A DNA stretch of 57,385 nucleotides from a virus (taxonomy: Duplodnaviria; Caudoviricetes). Positions 691-28,303 of the stretch are shown in pieces. Numbering within the stretch: the first letter of the stretch is position 1; the number at the start of each line of letters is the position of its first letter. The DNA lies in the IMG/VR virus record IMGVR_UViG_3300021182_000018, positions 1-57,385 of that record; one strand, written 5' to 3'. The position numbers were made by a program, and so were the translations under genes. Below the pieces are notes generated by a model, which searched no databases, was not told the origin of the DNA, and was given only the letters and a program-made list of their open reading frames with translations.

Positions 691-738
691 ATTTTTATTT
701 ATGTAGACAATAAAATTCAAGTAGATTCAATTAAATTT

Positions 739-1578: not shown

Positions 1579-1582
1579 TATT

Positions 1583-3275: not shown

Positions 3276-3283
3276 TGCTATGA

Positions 3284-5034: not shown

Positions 5035-5043
5035 AATAAATCC

Positions 5044-5937: not shown

Positions 5938-5940
5938 AAA

Positions 5941-6816: not shown

Positions 6817-6818
6817 AA

Positions 6819-7712: not shown

Positions 7713-7724
7713 TTTATTCTCTTT

Positions 7725-12429: not shown

Positions 12430-12435
12430 AAATGT

Positions 12436-12672
12436 TTACTTATAATATAAATAAAAGACATCAACATAATTAGGATGAGAATATTCTATATGATGGCCAC
12501 GAATAACCTTTTCGGAATATTTCCACAAAGTATGCGTTAAGTGTCCATTGTAACTATAATATTGTTTAGGGTCATCATTTACTTCAATAAATCTCTCATC
12601 ATCTGTAGAGTCATTGTCTAATACATTTTCTTTTTCATCTATTAAATTTTGAATTTCGTGTATCTTCATCAT
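12436..12672 (-). CDS. Small hypothetical protein with a possible gp55-like segment
   Basis: 78 aa; WKYSEKVIR resembles gp55 FKISEGLLR, and SHPNY resembles RRPNF. Confidence 0.5.
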   Translation of the reverse strand: MMKIHEIQNLIDEKENVLDNDSTDDERFIEVNDDPKQYYSYNGHLTHTLWKYSEKVIRGHHIEYSHPNYVDVFYLYYK

Positions 12673-13466
12673 ATTTCAAAAACCTCTTTCCATTTGTTTA
12701 CAATTATATCTGGATCTATTTCGTAATAACAATTAACATAATTTTTTCCTTCAATTAAATGCAAATTAGTTCCCGTTATCCTACACTCCCCAAGAACTAG
12801 CGGACAACATTCCATTTTACTTGAAAAATATACGTCAGTGATTGAGTCATACATTTCTTGTTTGTTTTCCGAAAATTTTGGACCTTTAATTTTATATTTT
12901 TGTATCAATGGTTTGACTGCGATTTCAAAATATTTATGATCGGTAATTTTTCCGAAAAGTGTAATATCTTTGAATCCATCTGCTATAGCTTTTTGAATAG
13001 ATACATGAACTTGCTTGTTCTCATCTATAGACCCAATGATTCCTACTGCCTTTTCTTTCGTCTTAGGATTTGGTAAAAGTTTGTCCATAACATTCGAAAG
13101 TATAAAGTAAGGTTTGTTGTAATTTTTAATGTTGTGGTATTCGGATTGGTGCTGACTTACAAAATGTATGGTATCAATTTTCTTAAGATTTGTGGTGGCT
13201 AGATTGAAAAGATTTTGTTCATGTACTGATAATACAATCTTATTAGCTTTAATGTGGTCTGGAATTTGAAGGAAATGAAATATTAAATTGTCATCTTCTG
13301 ATATAGACAATTCAGAAAAGTTTCCGAAATTGCACTTACCACGGCTCCATTCTTGAGGGCCGTAGAACTTTGTTTCAATTCCTCTTTCATTCAAAGCATT
13401 ACAAAGATTTATATGCGCGACTGAACTTCCACCCTCTGCGGACCAGCCTGAAATTATTTTAATCAT
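12669..13466 (-). CDS. GT-B (GT4-like) glycosyltransferase
   Basis: GGSSVAHINL, SVHE, IGSIDENK, ECCPLVLGEC (ExxxxxxxE). Confidence 0.75.
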   Translation of the reverse strand: MIKIISGWSAEGGSSVAHINLCNALNERGIETKFYGPQEWSRGKCNFGNFSELSISEDDNLIFHFLQIPDHIKANKIVLSVHEQNLFNLATTNLKKIDTIHFVSQHQSEYHNIKNYNKPYFILSNVMDKLLPNPKTKEKAVGIIGSIDENKQVHVSIQKAIADGFKDITLFGKITDHKYFEIAVKPLIQKYKIKGPKFSENKQEMYDSITDVYFSSKMECCPLVLGECRITGTNLHLIEGKNYVNCYYEIDPDIIVNKWKEVFEI

Positions 13467-13636
13467 TCTATTCCCCCATTTATATATTTTTCATAACTCC
13501 CACTAGGTAAATATACAGCCTTAAGAAGAATTTTATCAAAACATGGAGCATTAGATTTGTCACAGATAAAATCAACATCACCAAATAAGTCAATGTGAAC
13601 TTCCAATATTTTTATCAATTCACTAGCTTTCATCAT
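13463..13636 (-). CDS. Small hypothetical protein (57 aa, not in ORF track)
   Basis: MMKASELIKILEVHIDLFGDVDF...; AGGAG upstream; stop overlaps the next ATG (ATGA). Confidence 0.65.
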   Translation of the reverse strand: MMKASELIKILEVHIDLFGDVDFICDKSNAPCFDKILLKAVYLPSGSYEKYINGGIE

Positions 13637-13643
13637 ATCTCCT

Positions 13644-13973
13644 TTAAAACAGAATTTTCAAAGTATTTTCTAAAATATTCTTAAAATCTTTTTCGAAATG
13701 TTTATCCGAATTCCAATCTCCATGATATGCTAATCCGCTTTTAGTTTCCATTAAAGATGTAGGAATAGAATATACATGATTCCAAGTTAAAGAGTGTTCA
13801 CTAAAAACTTCCGAAACAGCTTTTGATTGCATTTGATAAGAATCAGAAGAAATAATTATCTTGATTTTCATATTTTTAATTTTTCCAATCCATTTCCAGT
13901 TAGCTTTTTGCCCAACATTTGATATACCTGAGACAAACGTTTCGGCACCTTTTGGTAAAAAATCTAAAATCAT
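13644..13973 (-). CDS. Hypothetical protein
   Basis: 109 aa ORF translationally coupled to the upstream ORF. Confidence 0.6.
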   Translation of the reverse strand: MILDFLPKGAETFVSGISNVGQKANWKWIGKIKNMKIKIIISSDSYQMQSKAVSEVFSEHSLTWNHVYSIPTSLMETKSGLAYHGDWNSDKHFEKDFKNILENTLKILF

Positions 13974-14164
13974 ATGACATCATTATCTATAAAATATTCA
14001 GCACTCCACCCATTTGAACTTCTTGATACTGGACGATATGTATACTTTATAGTAGCAGTCTCCAACCATCTCATTTCTCTATATGTAAAAACAGGAAACC
14101 ATAAAAATTTAGTAACAATCTTTTCGTCCCACAATTCTGGATCTCGTTTCAATTTAATTTTCAT
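13970..14164 (-). CDS. Small hypothetical phage protein (FLWFPV...RWLE type)
   Basis: 64 aa, overlapping start/stop junctions. Confidence 0.6.
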   Translation of the reverse strand: MKIKLKRDPELWDEKIVTKFLWFPVFTYREMRWLETATIKYTYRPVSRSSNGWSAEYFIDNDVI

Positions 14165-14439
14165 CTCTTCATCTCCCGAGAAATTTTAAAAAGTTTCATT
14201 CCAAGTTTACTCCAATGTCCCTCTGTGTTCGGTCTACCAGCCATACAAATATTTCCTTCATAACCTAATATAAGTGTTCTTTTGAAATCTAATATATGTA
14301 ATTCTTGCTCGTTATAATAATACATAGAACTCATTACATCATAATATATTAAATCTTTAATATCAATATGAGTTTTTTCTATATGTCTTTCAGGCTCACC
14401 ATATGAAAAATTAAAATAAGTATATAAATCAGTTTTCAT
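14161..14439 (-). CDS. Array-1 mini-protein with gp55-like C-terminal helix
   Basis: Ends SKLGMKLFKISREMKR; paralog of 14855..15052 (LDFKRTLILGYEGNI vs LDFKKTFILGYDENI). Confidence 0.7.
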   Translation of the reverse strand: MKTDLYTYFNFSYGEPERHIEKTHIDIKDLIYYDVMSSMYYYNEQELHILDFKRTLILGYEGNICMAGRPNTEGHWSKLGMKLFKISREMKR

Positions 14440-14660
14440 AAAATACCTTGAGAAATTTTGTAAAGATTTTCTGCAAGCATATCTCCAGAAAATCTTGCTA
14501 AATCATTTATAAATCTTTTCTTAAAAATGTCATTACTTTTCATTCCAACAAATTTAATATTTTTATCGTTCATATGTGGATATCCAAATACCGAAGAATA
14601 TTCTAAAAGACTATCTCCAATATAATAAATGTAAAATATATCATTATCTGGAATAATCAT
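14436..14660 (-). CDS. Array-1 mini-protein with gp55-like C-terminal helix
   Basis: Ends DMLAENLYKISQGIL. Confidence 0.7.
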   Translation of the reverse strand: MIIPDNDIFYIYYIGDSLLEYSSVFGYPHMNDKNIKFVGMKSNDIFKKRFINDLARFSGDMLAENLYKISQGIL

Positions 14661-14854
14661 TAAGAAAGTCCTTTAGAAATTTTGTAAAGATTCATAGAAA
14701 ATCTATCGCGAATAGTATATGTTCTATGTTTCATAAAATAATTTTCAATATATAATAACGTGATAAATTTCCGATCCTCTAATTGTATAGACCATCTAGT
14801 AGTATATCCTAATAGTTTATTATCTTCCAACCTAGAATAATGCTCTAATATCAC
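14660..14854 (-). CDS. Array-1 mini-protein with gp55-like C-terminal helix
   Basis: Ends DRFSMNLYKISKGLS; GTG start. Confidence 0.7.
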   Translation of the reverse strand: MILEHYSRLEDNKLLGYTTRWSIQLEDRKFITLLYIENYFMKHRTYTIRDRFSMNLYKISKGLS

Positions 14855-15052
14855 TTAAGAAAGTCCTTGAGAAATTTTGTAAGCAAGTTTTCCGAAAATG
14901 CTCCAATTAGTTTTTGTTTTCAGACTGTGTATTGTAATATTTTCATCATATCCTAATATAAAAGTTTTCTTAAAATCTAAATCACTTCTATATCTATAAT
15001 AATCCTGATAAAGAATATCAAACATAATTAAATCTGGAATCAATCTATTCAC
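14855..15052 (-). CDS. Array-1 mini-protein with gp55-like C-terminal helix
   Basis: Ends SIFGKLAYKISQGLS; start overlaps the primase stop. Confidence 0.7.
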   Translation of the reverse strand: MNRLIPDLIMFDILYQDYYRYRSDLDFKKTFILGYDENITIHSLKTKTNWSIFGKLAYKISQGLS

Positions 15053-16050
15053 TTAAACCACTCTCCATCGAACGCATCTGCTGTAAAGTATTTCTCTAAG
15101 TCCGAAAAAGACCATTCCAATTTTCCTGTCGCTAATACCAAATCATTTACATCTTTAATCTTATCAGTAATACCAAAATCTCTTAAGAAACGTTCCCAAC
15201 AAAACACATACTTCCCATCATTCAATAATTTCAAACTATTTTTCTTACCATCTTTATCATTGTCTAACAAATAAAAACATCTTAGTTCACGTATTTCTTT
15301 CTTAACCTTTTCTGTGAATTTAAGACCTAAAATAGAAACACAATTCTTTATAAAAAAACTATCTATAGGTCCTTCTACAACTATAACAGGAAGCTTTCTA
15401 TCTATCCCGTAAACGCCGTAAATCTCTTTATCTCCAAATCTTCTGTTCAAATACTTAGGATCGCTCCCTATCAAAGTTCTTCCCTGGTAGTAATAAATCT
15501 TTCCGAAAGTATCGTAGAAAGGTATTATCATTCTTCCTTGAAAGCATCCGCCAGTAGCTACGAAAAACTCTTTCCAAATGTTTTCCGGCAATTTTCTCCG
15601 AATACATTCTTCCCTAGCTTTCTCAAATATTTCCGAATCACCTTTTAAAATTGGTTGGAAATGCTTTACGTCATCTTTTTCTAAAATTATTTTCTCAGGA
15701 ACGTTTCGAGTATTTTTCGGAAAGTTTGGAGAATATTCTTGGAAATAATTCTCTCTGCGGTAATCTTCAAAGAGCGTTGTCCCATATAGATAATCACATT
15801 TCTTGAATAAATTTACTACAGATATTCCCTTATCATTAGCTTCACAATCCCCATTATGACAAATATATACATAAGAATCTATTCGAGAATTACCTTTAAG
15901 AATATACCCACGCTTCTTAGTCTTGTTTGTTTTAGAATCTCCACATAAAGGACAACGACAAGTAATATAATTGTCCTTGTATATTGCCTTTGATGGATAA
16001 TTGGACAACATCTTTTCAATATATTTTTCTAAAACGAAAGTGTTTTCCAT
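15049..16050 (-). CDS. gp61: T4-like DNA primase
   Basis: Zn finger CPLCGDS..KKRGY..CHNGDC, RMIIPF, YQGR, TOPRIM EGPIDS, DND, KDVND. Confidence 0.95.
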   Translation of the reverse strand: MENTFVLEKYIEKMLSNYPSKAIYKDNYITCRCPLCGDSKTNKTKKRGYILKGNSRIDSYVYICHNGDCEANDKGISVVNLFKKCDYLYGTTLFEDYRRENYFQEYSPNFPKNTRNVPEKIILEKDDVKHFQPILKGDSEIFEKAREECIRRKLPENIWKEFFVATGGCFQGRMIIPFYDTFGKIYYYQGRTLIGSDPKYLNRRFGDKEIYGVYGIDRKLPVIVVEGPIDSFFIKNCVSILGLKFTEKVKKEIRELRCFYLLDNDKDGKKNSLKLLNDGKYVFCWERFLRDFGITDKIKDVNDLVLATGKLEWSFSDLEKYFTADAFDGEWFK

Positions 16051-16056
16051 TTTGAG

Positions 16057-16085
16057 ATTATAACAAATTTAATCTAGGTTGTCAA
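16057..16085 (-). promoter_or_regulatory. sigma70-type promoter for primase (probably leaderless)
   Basis: TTGACA-acctagattaaatttgt(17)-TATAAT, ending 6 nt before the primase ATG. Confidence 0.8.
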
Positions 16086-16300
16086 GAGGAAAGTTTGCTT
16101 ATATGGTGGTAATATTTATCTAGATTATTCCAGTTCCAGTCATAATCTTCACAAATGGATTTGACAAATATATTTATATCACAAGAAATGATTACAAAGT
16201 TATTTCTTGGCAATGTTATGAGATGCTTAAAATTCATAACAGATGTATTTTCATTTTTTACATTATAATAATAAAAATTACCGTTTTTAATTTTACACAT
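16082..16300 (-). CDS. Small hypothetical protein, possible distant array-1 member
   Basis: 72 aa ending NLDKYYHHISKLSS; own TTGACA promoter at 16327-16355. Confidence 0.55.
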   Translation of the reverse strand: MCKIKNGNFYYYNVKNENTSVMNFKHLITLPRNNFVIISCDINIFVKSICEDYDWNWNNLDKYYHHISKLSS

Positions 16301-16506
16301 CCTTTGAAAAGTTCTGAGGAGTTTTTAAGATAACACTTCTAGAAAGGTTTGTCAAGGACTTTTTAGAGAATTTTTCTGGAAAGAAAAGGACCAACTTTCG
16401 AAAAGCCTTTGGAAATAGTTTTTAGCAATCTTCCGACAAAACAAATACTAAGTCGTTTTTCAAAAAATTTATCACATTCTTTTCTAAATCTTCATCTTCA
16501 TTATAC

Positions 16507-16540
16507 AAAAGAAAAACGCCTGAGAAATTTCCCAAGCGTT
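16507..16540 (-). terminator. Rho-independent terminator after gp32
   Basis: Minus strand AACGCTTGGGAAATTTCTCAGGCGTT followed by T-rich run. Confidence 0.6.
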
Positions 16541-16572
16541 GTATCAAATGAGTCTCCAATTTTAACTATCGA

Positions 16573-17445
16573 TTATCCTTCACGAAGCTTTCTAAGGAAT
16601 TCCTCTTCAGCATCATCTTCTAATGCCTCTTTGACAGGACTAGAAGAACCACTAGAACGTTCTTGTGCCTGACCAGAAGAACTTTGAGTAGTTACACCAA
16701 GAACCCTATCAAGCCTTCCCTGAGCTTTTTCGAAAGTGTCTATGTCATTTTCTAAATATGGGATCAATGAAATAAGTTTACTGTCAATTTTAGCGATTTC
16801 TTCCTCAGTCCCAATCCGTGTTGGTGACGAAAATTCTGAAAGGTCATAATCACGGACGAGGGAGCTATATCCCGGAACTTTCTTAGAACGAATCTTAAGC
16901 TTGAAATTAGACCCCTTTACGAAATCCAAAACAGGCTCAGGACTCTCGCCATCGTCTGGAGGAGGATTCATCTTATTTACGATCTTAGCATAAATTTTCT
17001 TAGGAATTCTCATCACCTTAATGAGACCGTTATTTTCAGGAGTGTTGTTATCCTTTATAATAAGGACGTTAAGGTAATATGACGCCTTCTTAAATTGTTT
17101 TGCTGTTTCCTTATTTTGGAATGATTCGTCAGTTCCTTCGGCAGCATTGCGGTGCCATTTAGAAGATGCATACTGACATATGGGACAGGCATGAGTTCTT
17201 CCTAGTGTCTGGCTACACTTACCTATGTACCATTTTCCATTCACTTCAAAAGAGTGAGAATATACAGTAGCAATCTGAACGGTTTCATTTTCTGGAGCAG
17301 GTAAAAAGCGAATAATTACGTCTGCCGAACCATCAACTAATTTTGGTTCGTAAAGATTGTTGTCAATTACTCTTTCAAATTTCTTCTTTTCTGACCCTGC
17401 CTTAAGTTCAGCACCAATCGCGGTCCAGTCTAATGTTCTAGCCAT
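16573..17445 (-). CDS. gp32: ssDNA-binding protein
   Basis: IIRFLPAP, HSF..NGKWY..C....G....CPIC, YYLNVLIIKD...PENNG, GSNFKLK, YDLSEF, acidic tail. Confidence 0.95.
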   Translation of the reverse strand: MARTLDWTAIGAELKAGSEKKKFERVIDNNLYEPKLVDGSADVIIRFLPAPENETVQIATVYSHSFEVNGKWYIGKCSQTLGRTHACPICQYASSKWHRNAAEGTDESFQNKETAKQFKKASYYLNVLIIKDNNTPENNGLIKVMRIPKKIYAKIVNKMNPPPDDGESPEPVLDFVKGSNFKLKIRSKKVPGYSSLVRDYDLSEFSSPTRIGTEEEIAKIDSKLISLIPYLENDIDTFEKAQGRLDRVLGVTTQSSSGQAQERSSGSSSPVKEALEDDAEEEFLRKLREG

Positions 17446-17556
17446 TTTTCATTTTCTCCATTGTTTGTTTTTAGTTGTCTCATCGCAAAATTTCTCGAAA
17501 ATCATTCTAAAAGTTTTCCAAAACCATTATTCAAAGTCTCTCCATCTTACCTCCTT

Positions 17557-17585
17557 ATTGTATCATATTTAATCTTAGCTGTCAA
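17557..17585 (-). promoter_or_regulatory. sigma70-type promoter with AGATTAAA spacer, upstream of gp32
   Basis: TTGACA-gctaagattaaatatga(17)-TACAAT. Confidence 0.8.
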
Positions 17586-18111
17586 GAACCTTTTTAAGAA
17601 TTTTCATCAAAGTCACGAAACGTTTGTGTTCGGCAGTTTCCTTGTCATCATCCTTAAAAAATCTAGAGTATTTTGCTATAAAGAACATAGAGACCATTTT
17701 GTTATCGTAGAAGTATTTAGCTAAACTCTCACCATTAGTATTTATATTAAAATAGGTTTCTAAAGATTTCTGGCAAGTTTTCTGAGAAATTTTTAGAATA
17801 GTTTCTTCATCTTGTTTAATCAAAATTTCTACGTCATAATTCTTAACTGTATCTGAAGACCATTTGAAAAAGTTTTCTAAAAATGTCTCATCTTTTATGA
17901 CACTCTCTATGAAAAATATTTGGAAGTCTTTTTCGGAAAAGTGGTGCGAAAGATACTTAGTATAGAATGGTTGAAGAGCTTTTGTAATCCTAGGATCTAA
18001 ACGCTTTCCCAAAAACCCTTTACAAAAACTCCAGTCTACTTTTTTACCAGAGATGCCTAACTTAAGTTTTTTAATGTAAAGATAAAAGCAATCAAAGTCA
18101 CAGGTGTTCAC
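17575..18111 (-). CDS. Probable helicase loader (gp59-like)
   Basis: Position directly upstream of gp32 as in T4; N-terminal YLYI..K..ISGK resembles gp59. Weak by-eye similarity. Confidence 0.5.
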   Translation of the reverse strand: MNTCDFDCFYLYIKKLKLGISGKKVDWSFCKGFLGKRLDPRITKALQPFYTKYLSHHFSEKDFQIFFIESVIKDETFLENFFKWSSDTVKNYDVEILIKQDEETILKISQKTCQKSLETYFNINTNGESLAKYFYDNKMVSMFFIAKYSRFFKDDDKETAEHKRFVTLMKILKKVLDS

Positions 18112-18115
18112 AAAG

Positions 18116-18496
18116 TTATTCCTCTATCAAAAAATTCAGATTAGATTTCTTCTTTTTGCTATACTTAATTGCTAATTCTTCTCTTAACAAAAATAGATTT
18201 TCTTCGTTAAAACAAGAGAGAACAGTTTTCGTATCAAACATATCTTCTTCCATAAAGTAAAAAATATCTTGCATTAAAATTCTACTTTCATACATATCTT
18301 TTACGAACAAATTGAATCTATGAAACTGCTCATTTTTATTCCTTCTACCATTTATTACGACTTCCATATCGAGACCCATTTGAGAAAGACTTTCGAAAAA
18401 CCTTTTCTTTAATACGGAGCGCACTATATCATCTTCAATATTTTTGTAAATTTCTTTCTTCGGGGTTAGAGATTGTGGCATAAATTCTGAGAGCAT
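18116..18496 (-). CDS. Probable late-transcription coactivator (gp33-like)
   Basis: T4 order 33-59-32; FMEED segment and C-terminal SNLNFLI resembling the gp33 clamp-binding motif TLDFLL. Confidence 0.6.
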   Translation of the reverse strand: MLSEFMPQSLTPKKEIYKNIEDDIVRSVLKKRFFESLSQMGLDMEVVINGRRNKNEQFHRFNLFVKDMYESRILMQDIFYFMEEDMFDTKTVLSCFNEENLFLLREELAIKYSKKKKSNLNFLIEE

Positions 18497-18514
18497 TTTT
18501 AAGAATCCTTTTGT

Positions 18515-19900: not shown

Positions 19901-19909
19901 AGATATCTC

Positions 19910-20311: not shown

Positions 20312-21981
20312 AAGTCCTCTAGAGATATTGTAACATCTTTAATGTAGACTGTCAAGGAAGATTTGGTCAACCTTGACAGACTGTTTTTCGAAGGATATTT
20401 CGGAAAAGGTTTTAGAAAACTTTCAAGATAATATTCTCTAACGTTTAAGTAATTTGATTCTTTATTTTGTTCAATGTTTTCCGAAACATCTAATTCAATT
20501 TTTAAAGTATTTTTCAAAAAATCTATAAGCATATTTTCTGGAGATTTTTCGAAATATGGTATACAAAGAAGAGGTATTTGATTGGTTCCGCAATATGTCT
20601 TTTTGATGGTGTCTCTTGCCTGTCGTTCTTTTAATTCCTCTTCCATTTCTTCTAAGGTCATGCTAGAAGTAAAATCGGTAGGAATATAATGTTGTTCTCC
20701 ATGATATTCAACAAGTCCTAATAATTTTTCGCGATCATCTAAAATACCAAAATCAAACGGCAATGGAAGTATATTTTTACAGTCTAGGAATTTATATTGT
20801 GGTTCGTTTTTCATATTATACTTTTTTAATAGTTTTAATATCTTTCGTTCGCCCTGAGACATATTACAAGTAGGACATCCACAGCCGGCTAAATGGTCAT
20901 GTGGAACTTGCCAGAATGGACCATGTTTTTCGCAAATTATCATTAAAGGAGTTTTTGAATTTACATAAGTTGCAGAAATATACGAATAACCCTCTCCATG
21001 TTCTTCAATAGCATCGTCTATAAATTCCAGAGTAGTTTTTAATTGATTCCCATAACATTTTCGACAACCAGCACCTTGACTAGTATGAGAATTCGGAGTT
21101 TGATAAAAAGCACCATGATCTGGGCATATAATTTTAATTTTTGTTTTGCTTCCAACATATTCATCAGGATACTCATATTGGTCACCATGAACTTTCCTAG
21201 CTTCTGTTAAAAACGATTTAGTATCAAAAATTGGTCTAGAGCACTGCGAACAACCTTCGCCAAATGTGTGTTTGCTTGGAGCTTGATAAAATGGGCCATG
21301 CTCAGGACATATAATTTTAATTTTTATTTCCGAACCTTTGTATTCTTCTGGGTATTCGTATTTGTCTCCGTGTTCTTCTCTAGCATCTATTAAAAATTCT
21401 TCGTGAGTTTTCTTTTTTGTTCCGCCACATTCATCGCAACCATGTCCTCTTAAGTGATCGCTTGCTGTTTGTAAAAATGTTCCGTGTGTTGGACATTCAA
21501 TTTCTATTTTATTATTCGCACCAGTGTATAATCCAACATATTTATATTTGTTTTCGTGTTTATCGCTGGCCTGTTTAACATATTCTTCGTGAGTTTTCTT
21601 TTTTGGTTTTGCGCAAAAAGGGCATCCACAACCATTGGTATGCATATATGGTTTTAGAAAAAACTCACCATGTTCTGGACATATGATACGAATTGGTTTA
21701 TGAGAACCTAAATAATCATCAGGATATTTATATTTGCTATCATGAACAAAATTAGCATCTATTATAAACTGCTCTGTAGTTTTTCTTAAATTTCCGCCAC
21801 AAACTTGACAACCATGTCCTGCTAAATGATGCCCGGCGTTACATAAAAATTCTCCATGATCTGGACAAATTATTTTAATATATTTCGAAGAACCTTGATA
21901 TTCCTCTGGATATGAATAAAAGAAATTAAATTTATTGTTAACTCTTTCTAAAAATTCAATGTTAGTTATTTTCTTAGCCAT
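20308..21981 (-). CDS. Hef-like free-standing endonuclease: six DUF723-type repeats plus C-terminal PD-(D/E)xK-like domain
   Basis: Six ~60 aa repeats Y.Y...Y......I.IICP.HG.F......H..G.GC..C; C-terminal LPFDFG...LVEYHGEQHY. Confidence 0.82.
   Translation of the reverse strand: MAKKITNIEFLERVNNKFNFFYSYPEEYQGSSKYIKIICPDHGEFLCNAGHHLAGHGCQVCGGNLRKTTEQFIIDANFVHDSKYKYPDDYLGSHKPIRIICPEHGEFFLKPYMHTNGCGCPFCAKPKKKTHEEYVKQASDKHENKYKYVGLYTGANNKIEIECPTHGTFLQTASDHLRGHGCDECGGTKKKTHEEFLIDAREEHGDKYEYPEEYKGSEIKIKIICPEHGPFYQAPSKHTFGEGCSQCSRPIFDTKSFLTEARKVHGDQYEYPDEYVGSKTKIKIICPDHGAFYQTPNSHTSQGAGCRKCYGNQLKTTLEFIDDAIEEHGEGYSYISATYVNSKTPLMIICEKHGPFWQVPHDHLAGCGCPTCNMSQGERKILKLLKKYNMKNEPQYKFLDCKNILPLPFDFGILDDREKLLGLVEYHGEQHYIPTDFTSSMTLEEMEEELKERQARDTIKKTYCGTNQIPLLCIPYFEKSPENMLIDFLKNTLKIELDVSENIEQNKESNYLNVREYYLESFLKPFPKYPSKNSLSRLTKSSLTVYIKDVTISLEDL
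20327..20355 (-). promoter_or_regulatory. sigma70-type promoter
   Basis: TTGACA-gtctacattaaagatgt(17)-TACAAT. Confidence 0.75.
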
Positions 21982-22074
21982 TTTAATATAATCCTAAGAG
22001 ATTGGTTTGTTTTCTATAGCGCGAGATTTCTCTCAAAACAAACCAACCTGCTATAGAAGATCTGTTTCTATTAT

Positions 22075-23226
22075 TTAGGGTTCTTCTCCTTCATCGACAA
22101 ATACAAGATTCTGAGCAACTACAGTATTATCCTCTTCTACATTTAGAGAATCTTTTGAATGTTTTCCTAATTGATACATACATTCAATTCTATAAATTAA
22201 ATCGGTTTCCTTAAAAATAGTTTGCCAAAATTCTTCAGCATCATCAATATCCTTTTCTAACACTTTCAAAACATTTCCTGAAATAGTTTGATATTGATAA
22301 GCATTTCGTTTCCCTTCTTTAGCCTTATCTATGATGCCCAAATCAACTGCAATAACATCTAATCCAGAATACTTTGACATACTCCCATCCCACTTAATCG
22401 AAAATGGTATTACGGTTCCTTCTTTAACGTCTCTAGATTTATTAACTTTAAGAAGAAATTTATATCCAACATGGGTTTCTCCTTCCTTAAGCTTTTGTTT
22501 AGTCGTTACGAAAATACTATTACTAGCCAAAACCGAACCTTGACCCCCTCCAATAACGACGCTGGGATAAAAAGTTGAAATATCATTGTAAATATGGTTA
22601 ATTACTATTGTCGGAATTTTCTTCAAACAAATTTTTGGAGTAATTATTCTAAATAATGACTTCAAACTTTTTGGTCTCGATAAATCAAGAGCTGACTTCA
22701 TATTTTCTGCATCATTTAATTCTTTTAGAGAACTAGAAAGTCCCAAAGAATCAATACCAAAAATCACTTTATCGTCAATAGTTAACATGTCTAATTGTTT
22801 TACCATTTCAAATTTTAATTCTTCTATTGATTGAAATGGAAGATGCACCACAGAATTTGGGTCTATATCAAATAATTCGAAGTAAGATTTTCTAGTTCCA
22901 AATTCATTATCAAAAAATAAAAATAACGACCCTGGATTTGCTTTCAAATATGCACTAGCCAAAAGTAACATAAACGAAGACTTAAACGTTTTAGATACCC
23001 CACAAAATTGAATAATTCCAGGAGTAATCCCACCATCTAGCAATTTTCCCTTAAGAGCAACATTCATCATGGGGTAGTCTGTTGGAATTGGCTTATCTTC
23101 ATCTAATATTTGAGACTCTGATAATTTACAAGCCAGAGGTATACTACTATTCTTCAAAATACGATCCATCAAACTCGCAGCTTTCCCCATTCCACCGATT
23201 TCTTTTTCTTTCTTTTCTTTAGCCAT
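22075..23226 (-). CDS. uvsX: RecA-like recombinase UvsX
   Basis: GVSKTFKS Walker A, FFDNEFG, IDSLG..S.KE, KSLFRI, INHIY, GGGQG, KSRDVKE. Start reassigned to the ATG at 23226 (AAGGAG upstream). Confidence 0.95.
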   Translation of the reverse strand: MAKEKKEKEIGGMGKAASLMDRILKNSSIPLACKLSESQILDEDKPIPTDYPMMNVALKGKLLDGGITPGIIQFCGVSKTFKSSFMLLLASAYLKANPGSLFLFFDNEFGTRKSYFELFDIDPNSVVHLPFQSIEELKFEMVKQLDMLTIDDKVIFGIDSLGLSSSLKELNDAENMKSALDLSRPKSLKSLFRIITPKICLKKIPTIVINHIYNDISTFYPSVVIGGGQGSVLASNSIFVTTKQKLKEGETHVGYKFLLKVNKSRDVKEGTVIPFSIKWDGSMSKYSGLDVIAVDLGIIDKAKEGKRNAYQYQTISGNVLKVLEKDIDDAEEFWQTIFKETDLIYRIECMYQLGKHSKDSLNVEEDNTVVAQNLVFVDEGEEP

Positions 23227-23292
23227 TTCGAAAATTCTCCTTAAAAGTTTACGCAAAAGTTTTCACAAAAATTTCTCTAAAAACAATTCAAA

Positions 23293-23457
23293 TTATGATT
23301 CCATTTGTTTATATTCATATGGTCTTGACAAAGCATATGCTAAAGCCATTGGTGGTTGCATTGCAGAAACACCAACAATAGGTAAAGCAAATTCCGGAAA
23401 ATAAAAATTTACATTAACGTTAATTCTCTTTTCTTTTGTTCTGTATTTTTTGCTCAT
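23293..23457 (-). CDS. 54 aa mini-protein containing a major-capsid-protein (gp23) fragment
   Basis: Not in ORF track. MSKKYRTKEKRINVNVNFYFPEFALPIVGVSAMQPPMALAYALSRPYEYKQMES; 15/29 ungapped identities to gp23 YYEHFAHRVVGLQAMNGPVGLAYALRRAY. ATGA overlap with the upstream stop. Confidence 0.8.
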   Translation of the reverse strand: MSKKYRTKEKRINVNVNFYFPEFALPIVGVSAMQPPMALAYALSRPYEYKQMES

Positions 23458-23693
23458 TTTCTATTTCCTACAGTTATTATTTCTTTAACTCCAAATTCTT
23501 TCAAATATTTTCTAAACATATTTCCAGCATGTGTCAAATACTGTTGTTCTTTTTGTGGTGGGAAGTTTGGAAGAGGGATTTGAACTATTAGAACATCACC
23601 AACTTTTTCAAAAAACCATTTAGAATAATTTTCAGAAATCTTATTAGCAAGGTTTTCGAAAAGATTATCTAAAAGTTTTTCAAATATTTTCAT
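23454..23693 (-). CDS. 79 aa mini-protein containing a portal (gp20) clip-like fragment
   Basis: PPQKEQQYLTHAGNMFRK vs portal PPGKAEEYLKGLIARYRK (7/18 identical, ungapped); start overlaps the gp43 stop. Confidence 0.65.
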   Translation of the reverse strand: MKIFEKLLDNLFENLANKISENYSKWFFEKVGDVLIVQIPLPNFPPQKEQQYLTHAGNMFRKYLKEFGVKEIITVGNRK

Positions 23694-26122
23694 TAATCAT
23701 CCTCAATCATTTTTAAAAGTTTACTATCTTTTAAAGTAATGGTTCCAAATTTTAGTGTATCAAACATTCTTTGTGCAGGAGCTAAATATTGTTTTTCGAA
23801 TTGTGTTTCGTAATCTATTTGAAAAAGTTTATCGAAAGCCGCTGGCCAATTTCCTATGTATCCTATAGCATTTGTTTTATATTTGTTGTTTGGATTTACG
23901 TATACATATTTCATTTTAGTTCCGTTTACAATTTTAGTCAATGGTAAATTGTTATCTTCTACTACATGATTATAAATTATAGATGCACGATTATATATTG
24001 GAGTCCCTTTATTAAAGTCTGTGAAGCCTTCTACTGAATATTTATCATAATCGTTAATACCTTTTGGTGCGGAAATGTCAGAAATTTTTTGAAGTTTGAA
24101 CTCTTTATATGCCTTCCTAATGTGAGTTAACATGTTTTCTCTATTAGGAAGTTCATCAATTTTTCCAGCAAACATAATGTGTAGAAGTTGTTCAAGATTT
24201 TTTCTAGAGAACATACACAAATCTGATTTCTTAATTTCCAGTCCGGTAATTGCGAAGTCTGGTGTTTCATAAATTTCTTCTTCATTTGCTAAGTTTAATG
24301 TAGCATATTTCTTCTTTTGTTGAACATAAATCTTAGCAATAATCTTTTCTCTTTTGAAATGGATTAGGTTCTTTGTATTGTATTTTTCGGCAAACTCTTC
24401 CATAATAACTTTCAAAAATGGTTCTAAAACTTTTTTCTGAAAGTCTAAAGAAAACTCTAGGAATGATTTTTCTGGTGCTAGACTACTATAAAGATAGGAT
24501 AAATCGAAAAACCGAGAATCTGTGTCGCAGAGGATGGACAAAGACTTTTTAATTTTTGTATGATTGAATGTATTATTTGGATAAATTTCGTCTGCAAGTT
24601 TCTTAAAATCTTTCTTAATATATTCATCAAATTTTGTTTTAACGTGAACAATTGCTTCTCTTCCAACTGCCGTAATTACCGAACCATTATCGAAATCATA
24701 GAAATGAAAATGAGCTTCCAAACAACTTCCAAAAACACCATTCGCCAAAATTTTTATAATTGCTTGTTGTGAGTTATAAAATTCTGCTTTTACTAAATCT
24801 TTTTCTTTCTTTGCTTTCTTTCCAGCATCCTTTAATGCCTTTCTATCATCAAACAATTTTTTAACAACAATTGGCAAAATTCCTTTAACGTTTTTTCTAT
24901 AATATATTCCAGGAAATTGTGTTTTAATTAGGTTAGGTATTTCTTCTTCTTTTGGATTTATTACTTTTGTTTCTGTAGATATATTAAACATCATAATAAT
25001 ATGCGGATAAAGAGCAGTAGCATCTATAGACAAAGAGTTTAGATAAAATCCAGGTTCAGTTTCTACCCATCCTCCTTTAATAGATCGCTCTTGTTCTGCC
25101 TTTATATCATGAGAAATATCAGACATTACAATATTGTTTTTATGCATATGTCTTAAAATATATCCTTCAATAACAGCAATTGTAGAAGATATTTTCGAAA
25201 AAGGAGTCCTAGTATGTGTGCAAAGGTCTATTGCAAGTTTTATAAATTTTTTCTTATCGTCTATCTTTTTAACTAATCGCAAATCTTGAAAATTATAATC
25301 TACAAATCTATTCCAATCGGCTTTCCAAAAATCGTTAATTGTTCCTTCGTATTCTAGCTTTCCTTCATTTACTTCCAACATTCCGATATAATTCAAAGAA
25401 AAAGATGGTTGGCTTTTTGCAGTAAACTTTTTATAAATATCCATACAATCTAATATGTCTATTCCTGGTATTACTATTTCTCCGTCATATTTTCTAATGA
25501 TTTTTCCAATAGAGGACAAACAACATTTAAGATTTAATGCATCAATTCTTTCTTGAATTTTCGGAATATCATACTTTGTCAAATTCCACCCAATAAGAAC
25601 GTTAACATGTTTTAGATGAAGAAATTTACAAAGTCTTTCTAAAAGAACTGATTCAGAATCGCAGTGTATATACTTTGTTTCTTTATTGTCTCCTGTATAT
25701 GGTTTAAGTCCTAATTGAAAGATTTCTCCAGTATGAAAATCTTCTAACCCAACTAGATTTATGGTTTCTGATTCTGGATATTCTGTTTCTATATCTATAT
25801 TAAAAATTGAATAGTCTTTTATATTAACTATATGTTCTTGGTCACCATATCTTTTATGAAGAAATTTTACCTCTTCTGATAAATCGGATTCGAATAGTTT
25901 TTCTCCAGAATCTCTAAGATCTTTCAAATTTTTCTTTGAATCTGTTATCTTTTTTGTAACAGAATTTCCGAAAATATCTTTAATAGGACTCTTACCACTC
26001 TTGTCTAAAACGTAATACTCAATATCATGCTTAAAAACATTATAAACAGTTTTACCATCCTCTCCAATTTCCCAGAGGTGCATTTTGTTATTCCAAGAGT
26101 CGTAATAAATATTCTTAAACAT
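23693..26122 (-). CDS. gp43: Family B DNA polymerase
   Basis: Exo motifs DIETE, GWN...YDIP, YNFQD; polymerase motifs DATALYP, KILANGVFG, DTDS, KKKY. Confidence 0.96.
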   Translation of the reverse strand: MFKNIYYDSWNNKMHLWEIGEDGKTVYNVFKHDIEYYVLDKSGKSPIKDIFGNSVTKKITDSKKNLKDLRDSGEKLFESDLSEEVKFLHKRYGDQEHIVNIKDYSIFNIDIETEYPESETINLVGLEDFHTGEIFQLGLKPYTGDNKETKYIHCDSESVLLERLCKFLHLKHVNVLIGWNLTKYDIPKIQERIDALNLKCCLSSIGKIIRKYDGEIVIPGIDILDCMDIYKKFTAKSQPSFSLNYIGMLEVNEGKLEYEGTINDFWKADWNRFVDYNFQDLRLVKKIDDKKKFIKLAIDLCTHTRTPFSKISSTIAVIEGYILRHMHKNNIVMSDISHDIKAEQERSIKGGWVETEPGFYLNSLSIDATALYPHIIMMFNISTETKVINPKEEEIPNLIKTQFPGIYYRKNVKGILPIVVKKLFDDRKALKDAGKKAKKEKDLVKAEFYNSQQAIIKILANGVFGSCLEAHFHFYDFDNGSVITAVGREAIVHVKTKFDEYIKKDFKKLADEIYPNNTFNHTKIKKSLSILCDTDSRFFDLSYLYSSLAPEKSFLEFSLDFQKKVLEPFLKVIMEEFAEKYNTKNLIHFKREKIIAKIYVQQKKKYATLNLANEEEIYETPDFAITGLEIKKSDLCMFSRKNLEQLLHIMFAGKIDELPNRENMLTHIRKAYKEFKLQKISDISAPKGINDYDKYSVEGFTDFNKGTPIYNRASIIYNHVVEDNNLPLTKIVNGTKMKYVYVNPNNKYKTNAIGYIGNWPAAFDKLFQIDYETQFEKQYLAPAQRMFDTLKFGTITLKDSKLLKMIEDD

Positions 26123-26342
26123 TGTATCCTTTAAGTTGTTTATATAAAAAGTTTATGTAATTTGGTCTTTGTAAAATCTTTTCTAATTTATCTATTTTAG
26201 AAAGTTTTAAGAAATTATTTTGAAAATCACTTTCGAAAGATCTTACATAATTTTCAGAAATTAGTTGTATGGTTGTATAAAAAGTGTCAGAAACATATAT
26301 TGAATATAGATATAATAAAGTTTTATGGTTGATTTTTATCAT
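26115..26342 (-). CDS. Array-2 mini-protein
   Basis: KLEKILQRPNYINF resembles gp55 ISEGLLRRPNFCNY. Confidence 0.65.
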   Translation of the reverse strand: MIKINHKTLLYLYSIYVSDTFYTTIQLISENYVRSFESDFQNNFLKLSKIDKLEKILQRPNYINFLYKQLKGYNV

Positions 26343-26344
26343 AA

Positions 26345-26551
26345 TTATTCCAAAAAAGTCGCACTAAATTTTTCATGTATGTCTAACCATTCTTTATTAG
26401 TTTTTTCTAAAATTATATTTACGTCTGGAATCCAAATATCTCTTTTAAGTATATAATTAAAAACTGAAGAAAATATTCTATTAGGATTTTTGTAATAATT
26501 TTTCAAAAATAGAATCCATAAATTTCGTCTTTTATATTTAATTCCACCCAT
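26345..26551 (-). CDS. Array-2 mini-protein
   Basis: 68 aa; VNIILEKTNKEW motif. Confidence 0.55.
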   Translation of the reverse strand: MGGIKYKRRNLWILFLKNYYKNPNRIFSSVFNYILKRDIWIPDVNIILEKTNKEWLDIHEKFSATFLE

Positions 26552-26758
26552 CTATCTACCATTATTTTTTATCCATTTCTCATAAGAAGGCTTTCCTAAA
26601 ATCTTTTCTAAAAGTTTATCAGAATGCTTGTAAAAATCCTTAATTAAAGCATTTTCGAAATATTCTCTTAAAATATATTTGAAGCAATGTGCAGGAACAT
26701 AGTAGGAATACCAATTATCAGATATGTTTATAGTTCCAAAATTTTTAGGATAATTCAT
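26552..26758 (-). CDS. Array-2 mini-protein
   Basis: 68 aa; LLEKILGKPSYEKW motif. Confidence 0.62.
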   Translation of the reverse strand: MNYPKNFGTINISDNWYSYYVPAHCFKYILREYFENALIKDFYKHSDKLLEKILGKPSYEKWIKNNGR

Positions 26759-26943
26759 TTGTAGATTCTTCTTAAAATAATATTAACTTTATAAACATCT
26801 CTAAATTTTAATATATAATTGTCTCCACCTCTGTCCGTAAAAATATAAAGATTTTTCATATCATTAGGATTCGGAAAATAAGAATAACCATAATTCCAAC
26901 TATTATAAAAATCCACATAAACAAATTTAGGAAGATAAATCAT
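26755..26943 (-). CDS. Array-2 mini-protein
   Basis: 62 aa; ends VYKVNIILRRIYK. Confidence 0.55.
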   Translation of the reverse strand: MIYLPKFVYVDFYNSWNYGYSYFPNPNDMKNLYIFTDRGGDNYILKFRDVYKVNIILRRIYK

Positions 26944-27101
26944 ATATAATAAAAATCTTTCTTATATGTTAAATTCAAAATTTTCTCTATAGATTCTGTA
27001 TAATACCTTTTCAAAAATATATGGTCATAAACATTCAAAATAAGAGTTCCATGATTCTTAATTTTTATATATTGATAAAAAGGATTAAAATCGGTGGTCA
27101 T
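26940..27101 (-). CDS. Array-2 mini-protein (53 aa, not in ORF track)
   Basis: MTTDFNPFYQYIKIKNHGTLILNVYDHIFLKRYYTESIEKILNLTYKKDFYYI; ATGA overlaps at both ends. Confidence 0.65.
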   Translation of the reverse strand: MTTDFNPFYQYIKIKNHGTLILNVYDHIFLKRYYTESIEKILNLTYKKDFYYI

Positions 27102-27331
27102 AGATAATCGTAAGTTCCAAACTTGTTCATAGACTTGTGTATTTTGAATCCTTTATAAGACTTTTCTAAAACTATTTCTAAAAATGTCACTATATTTTTA
27201 TTACAAATTTCATTATATTTTTCCGAGTATAGTTTCCATTGGCTGTTCGGTTTTAATTTAGACAGATCAAAATTTCTTTCATATCCAGTAGAAAATGAAC
27301 CACCTTGAAATAAAATTAGTCTAGAATCCAT
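27098..27331 (-). CDS. Array-2 mini-protein
   Basis: 77 aa; FLEIVLEKSYKGF motif. Confidence 0.55.
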   Translation of the reverse strand: MDSRLILFQGGSFSTGYERNFDLSKLKPNSQWKLYSEKYNEICNKNIVTFLEIVLEKSYKGFKIHKSMNKFGTYDYL

Positions 27332-27338
27332 TAACCTT

Positions 27339-28274: not shown

Positions 28275-28303
28275 ATTGTAGCATCTTTAATCTATGGAGT
28301 CAA
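28275..28303 (-). promoter_or_regulatory. sigma70-type promoter driving DHH-array2-gp43-mimics-uvsX
   Basis: TTGACT-ccatagattaaagatgc(17)-TACAAT. Confidence 0.72.

What the first reader, a model, noticed from the sequence alone, without database searches (positions are those of the whole stretch)
12436..27331. Self-mimic mini-gene system: small ORFs copy segments of the phage's own capsid, portal and late sigma factor
Seen: a dozen or so 53-92 aa ORFs sit in translationally coupled runs inside the replication arm (downstream of primase, between DHH and gp43, between gp43 and uvsX). Each carries a short segment matching an essential protein encoded in this same window (gp23, gp20 or gp55) on an otherwise unrelated body. 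Match strength varies and several gp55-like matches are weak. Established: bacterial defences sense conserved phage proteins (Lit via the gp23 Gol peptide, CapRel via capsid, Avs4 via portal), and gp55 binds RNA polymerase core through its sigma region-2-like part. Inference: these ORFs are expressed from sigma70-type promoters before the real late proteins. They may act as decoys that pre-occupy pattern-recognition sensors, or as competitors at the same interfaces. An array of epitope fragments from three unrelated proteins is not a system I recognise.
Basis: partly seen in the sequence, partly recalled or inferred. Interest (0 to 1): 0.92.

Follow-up and report, generated by a model that had tools for sequence, protein, structure and literature searches.

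The report
One capsid-peptide mimic among ordinary mini-genes
Of seventeen small genes packed between the replication genes of an uncultured T4-like phage, only one truly copies a piece of the phage's own capsid protein, so the proposed three-protein decoy system is not there, although that single gene belongs to a recurring, unexplained class.

Summary
The window is a 57-kb fragment of a distant T4-like phage.

- **gp23: real, one ORF.** In Smith-Waterman tests with shuffles, only 23293-23457 (54 aa) stands out. Its residues 18-47 match gp23 residues 83-112 (z 13). This segment aligns to T4 gp23 102-131, overlapping the conserved Gol/N-arm region.
- **gp20: chance.** All portal matches are at chance level.
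- **gp55: borderline.** The matches reduce to a roughly 16-residue C-terminal motif in a four-copy paralog family. That family lacks the gp55 helix that contacts RNA polymerase.
- **The capsid-like ORF is a discrete cassette.** It is absent from 5 of 6 related loci and from contigs of two other runs.
- **Other phages fuse the same gp23 segment to unrelated bodies**.

The arrays are ordinary, fast-turnover accessory genes and the three-protein "system" is not supported. The function of the capsid-peptide gene is untested. Unchecked notes from this scan report similar Gol-like mini-genes in at least 8 other genomes.

The parts
23293..23457 (-). 54-aa ORF (m23293). It has a basic 17-aa head, a 30-aa gp23-like segment and a 7-aa tail. 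Its ATG overlaps the TGA of the upstream ORF (ATGA), and AGGA lies 8 nt upstream.
   Evidence: Intact homologues at 94% and 77% identity are P0001 and P0002.
23317..23406 (-). The gp23-like segment of m23293 (residues 18-47).
   Evidence: 15 of 29 residues are identical to gp23 84-112 and 46 of 87 nt are identical. 8 of the 15 identical residues use different codons. GC3 is 0.13 here against 0.27 in the gp23 segment.
55166..56458 (+). gp23 major capsid protein (430 aa).
   Evidence: PF07068 at 1.9e-70 and phrog_138 at 7e-69.
55412..55501 (+). gp23 residues 83-112, the copied segment. It aligns to T4 gp23 102-131.
   Evidence: (alignment to PDB 6uzc chain a).
14161..15052 (-). Family A: four tandem paralogous ORFs (92, 74, 64 and 65 aa), all ending in (F/Y)KIS(Q/K/R)(G/E).
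26115..27331 (-). Array of six coupled ORFs (53-77 aa) between DHH and gp43. Some are weak paralogs (26115, 26552, 26940). The array is polymorphic in related contigs.
23454..23693 (-). 79-aa ORF conserved in 6 of 6 related loci. The proposed portal likeness is at chance level.
12436..14164 (-). Further small ORFs (78, 57, 109 and 64 aa) and a 265-aa ORF downstream of family A. None matches gp23, gp20 or gp55.
   Evidence: (13644-13973 hits phrog_10108 at 3e-16; 13970-14164 hits phrog_11031 at 5.5e-9).
16082..16300 (-). 72-aa ORF upstream of primase.
   Evidence: Conserved in L010, L011 and L012. Sub-threshold Pfam Fin hit.
31425..31847 (-). gp55 late sigma factor (140 aa). Residues 44-59 carry the motif that family A resembles.
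   Evidence: phrog_234 at 1.7e-22. Its profile finds T4 gp55 in PDB 7d7c at 2.6e-24.
48696..50390 (+). gp20 portal (564 aa).
   Evidence: phrog_213 at 3e-105.
16057..16085 (-). Perfect sigma70-type promoter match (TTGACA, 17 nt, TATAAT, with TG) just upstream of primase and the first run of mini-ORFs.
28275..28303 (-). Sigma70-type promoter match (10/12, with TG) upstream of DHH and the second run.

Best explanation
The 15-kb stretch holds two ordinary 'hyperplastic' arrays of small accessory genes. They are co-transcribed and translationally coupled with the early replication genes of a distant T4-like phage.

The arrays are built from lineage-restricted tandem paralog families and from cassettes that come and go between near-identical phages. 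They are not a coordinated set of fragments of gp23, gp20 and gp55.

One cassette, the 54-aa ORF at 23293-23457, really is a free-standing, diverged copy of the most conserved peptide of the major capsid protein. That peptide is the end of the N-arm and the first ordered stretch, overlapping the T4 Gol region.

By inference, it acts as a soluble stand-in for that peptide. Made before gp23, it would engage whatever normally reads the peptide. In T4 that is EF-Tu domains II/III (shown). The scaffold or neighbouring capsomers, or a motif-reading host sensor, are also possible (not shown here).

The resemblance of family A to gp55 is a short helix motif of uncertain meaning.
For: **Shown here.**
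- Only 1 of 883 mini-ORF versus protein comparisons stands out: z 13.2, with the next at 5.4 and 4.7.
- The capsid-like ORF is a clean ~160-nt indel between otherwise near-identical flanks.
- It is present in 1 of 6 related gp43 loci and in a contig of run X2. Contigs of runs X3 and X5 join 23257 to 23460 without it.
- It stays an intact ORF at 94% and 77% identity, with the core VVGVSAMQPPMALAY unchanged.
- Its similarity to gp23 is at the amino-acid level rather than the DNA level.

**The same gp23 segment occurs on unrelated small bodies elsewhere.**
- A 118-128-aa family has the segment at its C-terminus. It includes a gene downstream of primase in a complete 253-kb phage that also has a full gp23 (Pfam Gp23 46.6 bits).
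- An 81-92-aa type has the segment at its N-terminus.
- 28 of the 30 nearest ESM Atlas clusters are small viral proteins carrying PF07068.

**The arrays are ordinary accessory-gene arrays.**
- Family A has 4 copies here and 2 in L010. Among 1.84 billion representatives it has only 7 relatives, all 64-92 aa.
- The DHH-gp43 array shows exact cassette loss and replacement in other runs.
- Two of its ORFs are 100% identical in loci whose gp43 is only 64% identical.

**From the literature (passages read).**
- The gp23 N-terminal region is inside the prohead, probably on the scaffold, and later forms intercapsomer contacts (PMC9546572).
- Lit and CapRel read the capsid protein through short motifs (bioRxiv 10.64898/2026.01.04.697583).
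Against: - No binding partner of the 54-aa protein is shown.
- The ORF does not reach the Pfam Gp23 model at E <= 10. It has substitutions at otherwise conserved positions (GVSAM for GVQ(A/P)M; QPPMA for xxPVG), so it may no longer bind what gp23 binds.
- It is short, rare (3 sequences known) and dispensable in relatives, which also fits a decaying fragment.
- Translation is not shown.
- Against calling the gp55 likeness meaningless: gp55 is the top hit of the family A profile among 72 window proteins (hhalign P 1.6e-4, next 0.014). It is also the top non-member hit by HMMER (9.9 bits; 16 of 23,100 shuffled decoys reach this). A second mini-ORF (26115-26342) is the best non-self hit of the gp55 profile (7.9 bits; 24 of 23,100 decoys).
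Confidence: 0.7

Rival explanations
1. The mini-ORFs form one early-expressed system of epitope decoys or competitors that copy gp23, gp20 and gp55. They pre-occupy host pattern-recognition sensors or the RNA polymerase interface.
For: - One genuine gp23 copy.
- A gp55-like motif in family A and in 26115-26342, each at roughly 1e-3 per pair against shuffled decoys.
- Operon position behind sigma70-like promoters.
- Motif-reading capsid sensors exist.
Against: - gp20 matches are at chance.
- 11 to 12 of the 17 ORFs match none of the three proteins.
- No ORF hits the three families' HMMs at E <= 10.
- Family A lacks the gp55 H3 helix that contacts RNA polymerase.
- Family B against gp55 gives P 0.02-0.26.
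- The ORFs are gained and lost independently rather than as a set.
Confidence: 0.05
2. The 54-aa ORF is a functionless relic. A scrap of a capsid gene was moved by recombination or homing-endonuclease traffic, happens to remain open, and is on its way out.
For: - Present in only 1 of 6 related loci and missing in contigs of two runs.
- Only 3 sequences are known.
- No Pfam hit.
- Homing endonuclease genes flank gp23 in this window.
- Homing endonuclease genes lie near the gp23-segment genes of L013 and L021.
Against: - The frame is intact in three variants down to 77% identity, with an invariant core.
- It has an ATGA overlap and a Shine-Dalgarno-like AGGA.
- Composition is fully matched to its surroundings, and 8 of 15 conserved residues use changed codons. 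This means amino-acid conservation over a long time.
- The same segment was captured at least three times on different bodies, and one type forms clusters of up to 204 members.
Confidence: 0.2
3. The 54-aa protein works in head assembly rather than in defence. As a free N-arm peptide it binds scaffold, portal or gp23 and so tunes or caps capsid assembly, or poisons the assembly of a co-infecting relative.
For: In T4 this part of gp23 lies inside the prohead near the scaffold. It later makes intercapsomer contacts, and Met98 of the N-arm contacts the portal whiskers (PMC9546572, passages read).
Against: - The gene sits in an early replication operon with no late-promoter motif nearby.
- It is dispensable in close relatives that presumably build the same head.
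Confidence: 0.12
4. Family A (14161-15052) descends from the N-terminal part of gp55 and acts on transcription, for example by binding a partner of the gp55 H2 helix.
For: - gp55 is the top window hit of the family profile.
- The shared motif is the most conserved element of both families.
- Only 2 of 150 column shuffles reach the observed hhalign score.
Against: - The match shrinks to 15-16 columns against gp55 family profiles: P 4e-4, then 0.004, then 0.07 as the profile widens.
- It does not grow when family A is enlarged to 9 sequences.
- An exhaustive HMMER search finds no gp55.
- Reversed window proteins reach 7.9 bits and another mini-ORF 8.9 bits, against 9.9 for gp55.
- The RNA polymerase-contacting helix is absent.
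Confidence: 0.1

Closest known systems
Gol region of T4 gp23 (Gol / EF-Tu / Lit exclusion by prophage e14)
   Same: The 54-aa ORF copies the homologous stretch of this phage's gp23. Window gp23 83-112 aligns to T4 102-131. It therefore overlaps the short, most conserved gp23 peptide that binds EF-Tu and is read by Lit (PMC3014915).
   Different: - Gol is part of the 521-aa capsid protein and is made late. Here the peptide is a separate 54-aa product of an early operon.
- It is diverged (15 of 29 identical) and covers only about the C-terminal two thirds of Gol. The Gol limits 93/94-122 are recalled, not taken from a call.
- Binding to EF-Tu or Lit is untested.
Unnamed small phage proteins carrying the Gp23 N-terminal segment (P0003-P0010 type, P0011/P0012 type; ESM Atlas clusters with PF07068)
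   Same: The same gp23 segment sits on a small non-capsid body, in non-structural gene neighbourhoods, in phages that also have a full gp23.
   Different: - Those proteins pass the Pfam Gp23 cut-off (46.6 and 43.5 bits) and have their own conserved N- or C-terminal parts.
- m23293 shares only the segment with them, is shorter and is more diverged.
- Searches found no paper on such proteins.
Hyperplastic (plasticity) regions of small early ORFs in T4-like genomes
   Same: - Runs of overlapping small ORFs between conserved replication genes.
- Tandem paralogs.
- Presence/absence and replacement between close relatives.
   Different: None in kind. That such regions are typical of T4-like phages is my recollection and comes from no call.
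gp55 late sigma factor, sigma region-2 homology domain (PDB 7D7C)
   Same: Family A ends in (F/Y)KISQG(L/I), which resembles the gp55 helix FKISEGL.
   Different: - Only about 16 residues match.
- There is no H3 helix with the clamp-helix contacts.
- There is no HMM-level relation.

Membership tests
Pfam PF07068 Gp23 (T4-type major capsid protein), for ORF 23293-23457 | Scores over the family's gathering cut-off (24.4 bits). | tested here: not met
   No hit at E <= 10. The family search of the window found gp23 only.
Pfam PF07068 Gp23, for ORF 23293-23457 | Local similarity to the conserved N-terminal segment of the family. | tested here: met
   SW z 13.5 against own gp23. Scores 57-68 against the gp23 or gp23 segments of other phages. 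HMMER E 1.6e-5 on the window.
Pfam PF07068 Gp23, for ORF 23293-23457 | Complete HK97-type capsid fold. | tested here: not met
   The protein is 54 aa, of which about 30 are gp23-like.
Gol peptide (functional class: EF-Tu binder, Lit activator) | Corresponds in position to the Gol region of T4 gp23. | tested here: inconclusive
   Maps to T4 102-131. This overlaps Gol only if Gol is about 93-122, a figure recalled and not seen in a call. The review read gives '29-residue region' without numbers.
Gol peptide (functional class) | Binds EF-Tu domains II/III and allows Lit cleavage of EF-Tu. | not testable with these tools
   The host is unknown and there is no assay.
P0003-type Gp23-segment small proteins | Conserved N-terminal helical part (M-x-x-W ... 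DIL ... W). | tested here: not met
   Alignments of m23293 to P0003-P0010 cover only the gp23 segment.
gp55 / phrog_234 late sigma factor, for family A (14161-15052) | Family HMM match. | tested here: not met
   No PHROG or Pfam hit at E <= 10. No gp55 among the 7 hits of the exhaustive profile search.
gp55 / sigma region-2 domain, for family A | Helix H3 with acidic residues that contact the RNA polymerase clamp helices. | tested here: not met
   Family A ends at the H2-like motif. The H3 contacts E70, D74 and E77 lie downstream of it.
gp55 / sigma region-2 domain, for family A | Profile-profile similarity beyond chance. | tested here: inconclusive
   hhalign P runs from 1.6e-4 to 0.004, reaching 0.07-0.08 against distant gp55s. 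2 of 150 column shuffles reach the observed score. Decoy-calibrated expectation is 0.05 per window proteome.
gp20 portal (phrog_213), for all 17 mini-ORFs | Any similarity above composition-matched shuffles. | tested here: not met
   Best p is 0.048 of 17 tests. Best rank is 4 of 52. No tblastn place in 12436-27331 below E 3.5.
Pfam PF10955 Fin (anti-sigma-F), for ORF 16082-16300 | Scores over the gathering cut-off (23.7 bits). | tested here: not met
   19.1 bits, E 0.0016.

The most novel reading that the evidence does not exclude
The 54-aa ORF, and the unrelated small proteins of other T4-like phages that carry the same gp23 segment, are early-made molecular mimics of the capsid protein's most conserved peptide. 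They bind EF-Tu, or a host sensor that reads that peptide (Lit-like, CapRel-like or unknown), without triggering it. This would protect the phage when gp23 floods the cell: counter-defence by epitope mimicry, acquired repeatedly and traded as a cassette.
Probability: 0.2. Interest if true: 0.8.

Novelty: new variant of a known kind. Interest (0 to 1): 0.4.

Why it matters
The attractive idea of a phage-encoded array of decoys for capsid, portal and sigma factor does not survive controls. This saves follow-up effort on 16 of the 17 genes.

What remains is small but concrete. A phage keeps a separate early gene for the single most conserved peptide of its capsid protein. The same peptide has been captured onto other small proteins in other T4-like phages.

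That peptide is the one known to bind EF-Tu and to be read by the Lit exclusion protease. These genes therefore give a direct handle on two questions: why the peptide is so conserved, and whether phages use copies of their own 'pattern' against motif-reading immunity.

The cassette's presence or absence between otherwise near-identical phages offers natural controls for such tests.

Tried and rejected
- **Complex prediction** of gp23 (residues 60-430) with the 54-aa protein gave no verdict (score 0.00, controls not run). It says nothing either way.
- **AlphaFold2 of family A** (9 sequences) gave mean pLDDT 46.5. **AlphaFold2 of the P0003 family** (7 sequences) gave 48.9. Both were too poor for fold searches, so none were run.
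- **P0003-family N-terminal part against the gp23 propeptide region.** hhalign gave P 0.13, so there is no support for a whole N-terminal gp23 fragment. The long tblastn alignments to cyanophage gp23 had suggested it.
- **tblastn of P0003 against 50,697 phage records** gave 666 records with one place each. All 40 listed rows fall at a single locus per genome, most of them annotated as head proteins. No second, small copy was seen in cultured phages at E <= 1e-3.
- **megablast of 12000-27500 against phage records** found no match.
- **T4 late-promoter motif TATAAATA.** 10 matches against 11 expected, and none upstream of 23293-23457 on its strand.
- **RNA-library contigs (run X20)** do not cover 23266-23476. 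This is no evidence of silence. The RNA library may also contain DNA.
- **Family B (26115, 26552, 26940 and relatives) as a gp55 mimic.** hhalign P 0.02-0.26.
- **Literature.** Searches for a description of capsid-peptide mini-proteins or capsid decoys found none among the listings and passages read. Subscription papers (for example Bingham et al. 2000, JBC, cited) and all supplements were not available. The residue-level Gol mutagenesis could therefore not be compared with the ORF.

Full report
**What the window is.** The window is a whole IMG/VR virus record of 57,385 bases, classed as linear and about 27% complete. Its DNA polymerase is only about 27% identical to those of cyanophage T4-likes, and megablast finds no close phage record. 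PHROG and Pfam scans give the map.
- Minus strand: primase 15049-16050, gp32-type SSB 16573-17445, gp41-type helicase 18515-19900, UvsX 22075-23256, gp43 23693-26122, DHH phosphoesterase 27339-28253 and gp55 31425-31847 (phrog_234, 1.7e-22).
- Plus strand: portal gp20 48696-50390, prohead protease 51604-52266, scaffold 53973-54950 and gp23 55166-56458 (PF07068, 1.9e-70).

Contigs of public runs labelled peat metagenome hold the stretch.

**The observation: layout.**
- Nine lie around primase: 16082-16300 upstream, and eight between 15052 and 12436.
- Six lie between DHH and gp43 (27331-26115).
- Two lie between gp43 and uvsX (23693-23293).

Neighbouring ORFs overlap by 1-8 nt or are 0-7 nt apart, so 'translationally coupled runs' is correct. 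Sigma70-type promoter matches are not enriched overall (91 against 88.5 +/- 9.3 in shuffles). The best ones do sit upstream of the operons: 12/12 at 16085-16057 before primase and 10/12 with an extended -10 at 28303-28275 before DHH.

**The observation: matches to gp23, gp20 and gp55.** I ran Smith-Waterman (BLOSUM62, gaps 11/1) of each of the 17 ORFs against the three proteins, with 1000 shuffles of the ORF each.
- One pair is far outside the null. ORF 23293-23457 scores 76 against gp23, where shuffles give 25.1 +/- 3.8 (z 13.5). Residues 18-47 align without gaps to gp23 83-112.
- For gp20 the best of 17 has p = 0.048.
- For gp55, four ORFs have p between 0.005 and 0.045.

I widened the test to all 52 window proteins of 100 aa or more, giving 883 pairs with 150 shuffles each. 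The gp23 pair has z 13.2. The next are unrelated pairs at 5.4 and 4.7, and 13 pairs have z >= 3. The gp55 pairs (2.3-3.4) are inside this tail.

Three further checks agree:
- tblastn of the three proteins against the six-frame window finds a second place only for gp23 (23317-23403, E 4e-4). In the finding's range nothing is below E 3.5 for gp20 or below 0.76 for gp55.
- None of the 17 ORFs hits a capsid, portal or late-sigma family in PHROGs or Pfam at E <= 10.
- Two ORFs belong to PHROGs of unknown function (phrog_10108 and phrog_11031).

**The gp55 question in more depth.** The four ORFs at 14161-15052 are tandem paralogs: 14161 against 14855 gives E 2e-10, and the others are weaker. All end in (F/Y)KIS(Q/K/R)(G/E). 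The gp55 family has a near-invariant F(L/F)KI(S/A)EGL.

Evidence for a link:
- The family profile's best hit among 72 window proteins is gp55 (hhalign P 1.6e-4, 51 columns, probability 50%; the next protein has P 0.014).
- HMMER with filters off ranks gp55 first after the four members (9.9 bits). It also ranks ORF 26115-26342 first after gp55 for the gp55 profile (7.9 bits).

Evidence against:
- Against a gp55 subfamily profile the match shrinks to 16 columns (P 4e-4). Against 26 diverse gp55s it is 15 columns (P 0.004, probability 8%). Against the distant gp55s alone it is P 0.07.
- Enlarging family A to 9 sequences does not strengthen it (P 0.0012, 3.4e-4, 0.0023 and 0.08).
- 2 of 150 column-shuffled profiles reach the observed score.
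- Calibrated on 23,100 shuffled window proteins, the HMMER scores correspond to 0.05 and 0.08 expected chance hits per window proteome. Reversed real proteins reach 7.9-8.5 bits and another mini-ORF reaches 8.9.
- An exhaustive HMMER search of 1.84 billion representatives with the family A profile found 7 proteins at E <= 0.001. All are 64-92 aa, four of them are the window's or L010's own, and none is a gp55.
- The second array (26115, 26552, 26940 and relatives) gives P 0.02-0.26 against gp55.

Functionally, the T4 gp55 structure paper states that clamp-helix contact is made by H3 residues E70, D74 and E77 (PMC7892883, passages read). In the alignment these lie downstream of the IAEGLSKR helix that the motif matches. 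Family A proteins stop at that motif. So the likeness is a short helix motif: statistically arguable, structurally insufficient for the proposed competition.

**What the capsid-like ORF is.**
- Its ATG overlaps the TGA of the upstream ORF (ATGA), and AGGA lies 8 nt upstream.
- Against gp23 it has 15 of 29 identical residues but only 46 of 87 identical bases. Eight of the 15 identical residues use different codons. Its GC3 (0.13-0.18) matches its neighbours rather than gp23 (0.38). This is old divergence with the amino acids kept.
- It aligns about as well to the gp23 of a distant phage (67) and to gp23 segments elsewhere (57-68) as to its own gp23 (76). 'Self'-mimicry is therefore not specifically shown.
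- The window gp23 aligns to T4 gp23 (PDB 6uzc) so that 83-112 equals T4 102-131.

The review read (PMC3014915) says three things about Gol. A 29-residue gp23 region defines Gol. It binds EF-Tu domains II and III. It is the most conserved part of gp23 in T4-related phages. Its numbering (about 93-122) is my recollection.

The T4 capsid paper (PMC9546572) places residues before L106 in a region that is disordered and internal in the prohead, probably on the scaffold. That region later forms the N-arm and N-fist, which make intercapsomer contacts.

**It is a cassette.** Among six related loci found with gp43, only L004 (gp43 98% identical) has the ORF, at 94% identity. L005-L009 (gp43 93% and 64% identical) go from the conserved 79-aa ORF straight to uvsX. 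The alignment shows a clean indel of about 160 nt between almost identical flanks.

In public runs, a 4-kb contig of X2 runs through the ORF. Contigs of X3 and X5, from two studies, join 23257 to 23460 with 60 other letters between.

The database of 5.8 billion clusters holds two relatives in the 29-95 aa range: P0001 at 94% identity and P0002 at 77%. Both are intact, with the core VVGVSAMQPPMALAY unchanged.

**The same peptide on other bodies.**
- Just downstream of the primase of a complete 253,664-bp phage (G001, primase 38% identical), an ORF ends in IALPLVRRTFPTLFANQIVGVQAMSSPVGLAYALRV. That genome also has a full gp23 (288 bits), and the small gene passes the Pfam cut-off (46.5 bits).
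- Its family (P0003-P0008 and P0010; 90-128 aa) shares a helical N-terminal part. That part is unrelated to the gp23 propeptide (hhalign P 0.13) and is followed by the gp23 segment.
- P0011 and P0012 (81 and 92 aa) carry the segment at the N-terminus with a different tail. P0012 lies about 675 nt upstream of an HNH endonuclease gene in L021.
- P0009 looks like a truncated true gp23.
- In the ESM Atlas, 28 of the 30 nearest clusters to P0003 are small viral proteins with PF07068 in part of their members, for example a 204-member cluster with a 117-aa representative. Some of these clusters may be gene fragments.
- In 50,697 deposited phage genomes, P0003 finds only one place per record, on the capsid gene. 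The class is so far a metagenomic one.
- Earlier unchecked notes of this scan describe Gol-like mini-genes in at least 8 other genomes. I did not test those.

**The arrays as a whole.**
- Family A has four copies here and two in L010, where different small ORFs follow.
- Two ORFs of the DHH-gp43 array are 100% identical in L008 and L009, although gp43 there is 64% identical.
- Contigs from other runs show exact loss of 26755-26939 and replacement of other cassettes.
- RNA-library contigs of a related variant lie on parts of the array (for example 26399-26754) and on gp43 and DHH. The tool warns that DNA may be present in such libraries.

This is the behaviour of fast-turnover accessory gene arrays.

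**Mechanism and odds.** I put 0.7 on the overall reading: ordinary arrays, one genuine capsid-peptide cassette, and no three-protein system.

For the cassette itself I favour a soluble peptide mimic that binds a reader of the gp23 N-arm/Gol segment, whether EF-Tu, a sensor or an assembly partner. A relic (0.2) and an assembly role (0.12) are the alternatives.

The specific counter-defence version has about 0.2. One argument against a simple decoy is that in the T4 system the free Gol peptide, together with EF-Tu, activates Lit. An early copy would have to bind without activating.

**Limits.**
- The host is unknown.
- There is no evidence of translation.
- Both structure predictions were poor, and the complex prediction gave no verdict.
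- Supplements and subscription papers were not available.

Noticed in passing
window 16082-16300 (-): The 72-aa ORF just upstream of primase gives a sub-threshold Pfam hit to Fin, the anti-sigma-F factor (PF10955, E 0.0016, 19.1 bits against a cut-off of 23.7, covering 50 of 76 profile positions). From recollection, Fin binds the RNA polymerase sigma-docking site. The ORF is also the second-best non-member hit of the family A profile.
   Followed up: no
L008 9514-9860 and L009 4396-4739, against window 26755-27101: Two mini-ORFs are 100% identical in amino acids in loci whose DNA polymerase is only 64% identical to the window's. This points to recent exchange of small-gene cassettes between diverged phages.
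   Followed up: partly
window 26251-27126: Contigs of other runs show exact deletion of ORF 26755-26943 (joint 26754 to 26940, in a DNA run and in an RNA-library run). They also show several replacements of neighbouring cassettes.
   Followed up: partly
window 52384-53865 (+), 56602-57270 (+), 33735-34208 (+): Homing-endonuclease-like genes flank the head genes. A 493-aa ORF with a GIY-YIG-type N-terminal part lies between protease and scaffold. An HNH/NUMOD3 ORF lies right after gp23. Another HNH ORF starts at 33735.
   Followed up: no
window 103-720 (-): A 205-aa ORF matches a transposase family (phrog_6620, 1e-48) with a weaker DNA invertase match, at the edge of a phage contig.
   Followed up: no
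window 31425-31847 (-) and alignment A3: This phage's gp55 belongs to a short subfamily (139-155 aa). It lacks about 55 C-terminal residues present in the ~198-aa gp55 proteins of other T4-like phages. In T4 the C-terminus carries the sliding-clamp-binding motif.
   Followed up: no
L013 5199-6005, 8103-9041, 10063-10773: Three GIY-YIG-type endonuclease-like ORFs lie within 6 kb around the primase and the gp23-segment gene of the 253-kb phage G001.
   Followed up: no
window 859-13466 (-): A long run of glycosyltransferase-like and sugar-modifying genes adjoins the first mini-ORF array (glycosyltransferase phrog_2644 at 8e-50; weak GtrB-like hit at 11701-12429).
   Followed up: no
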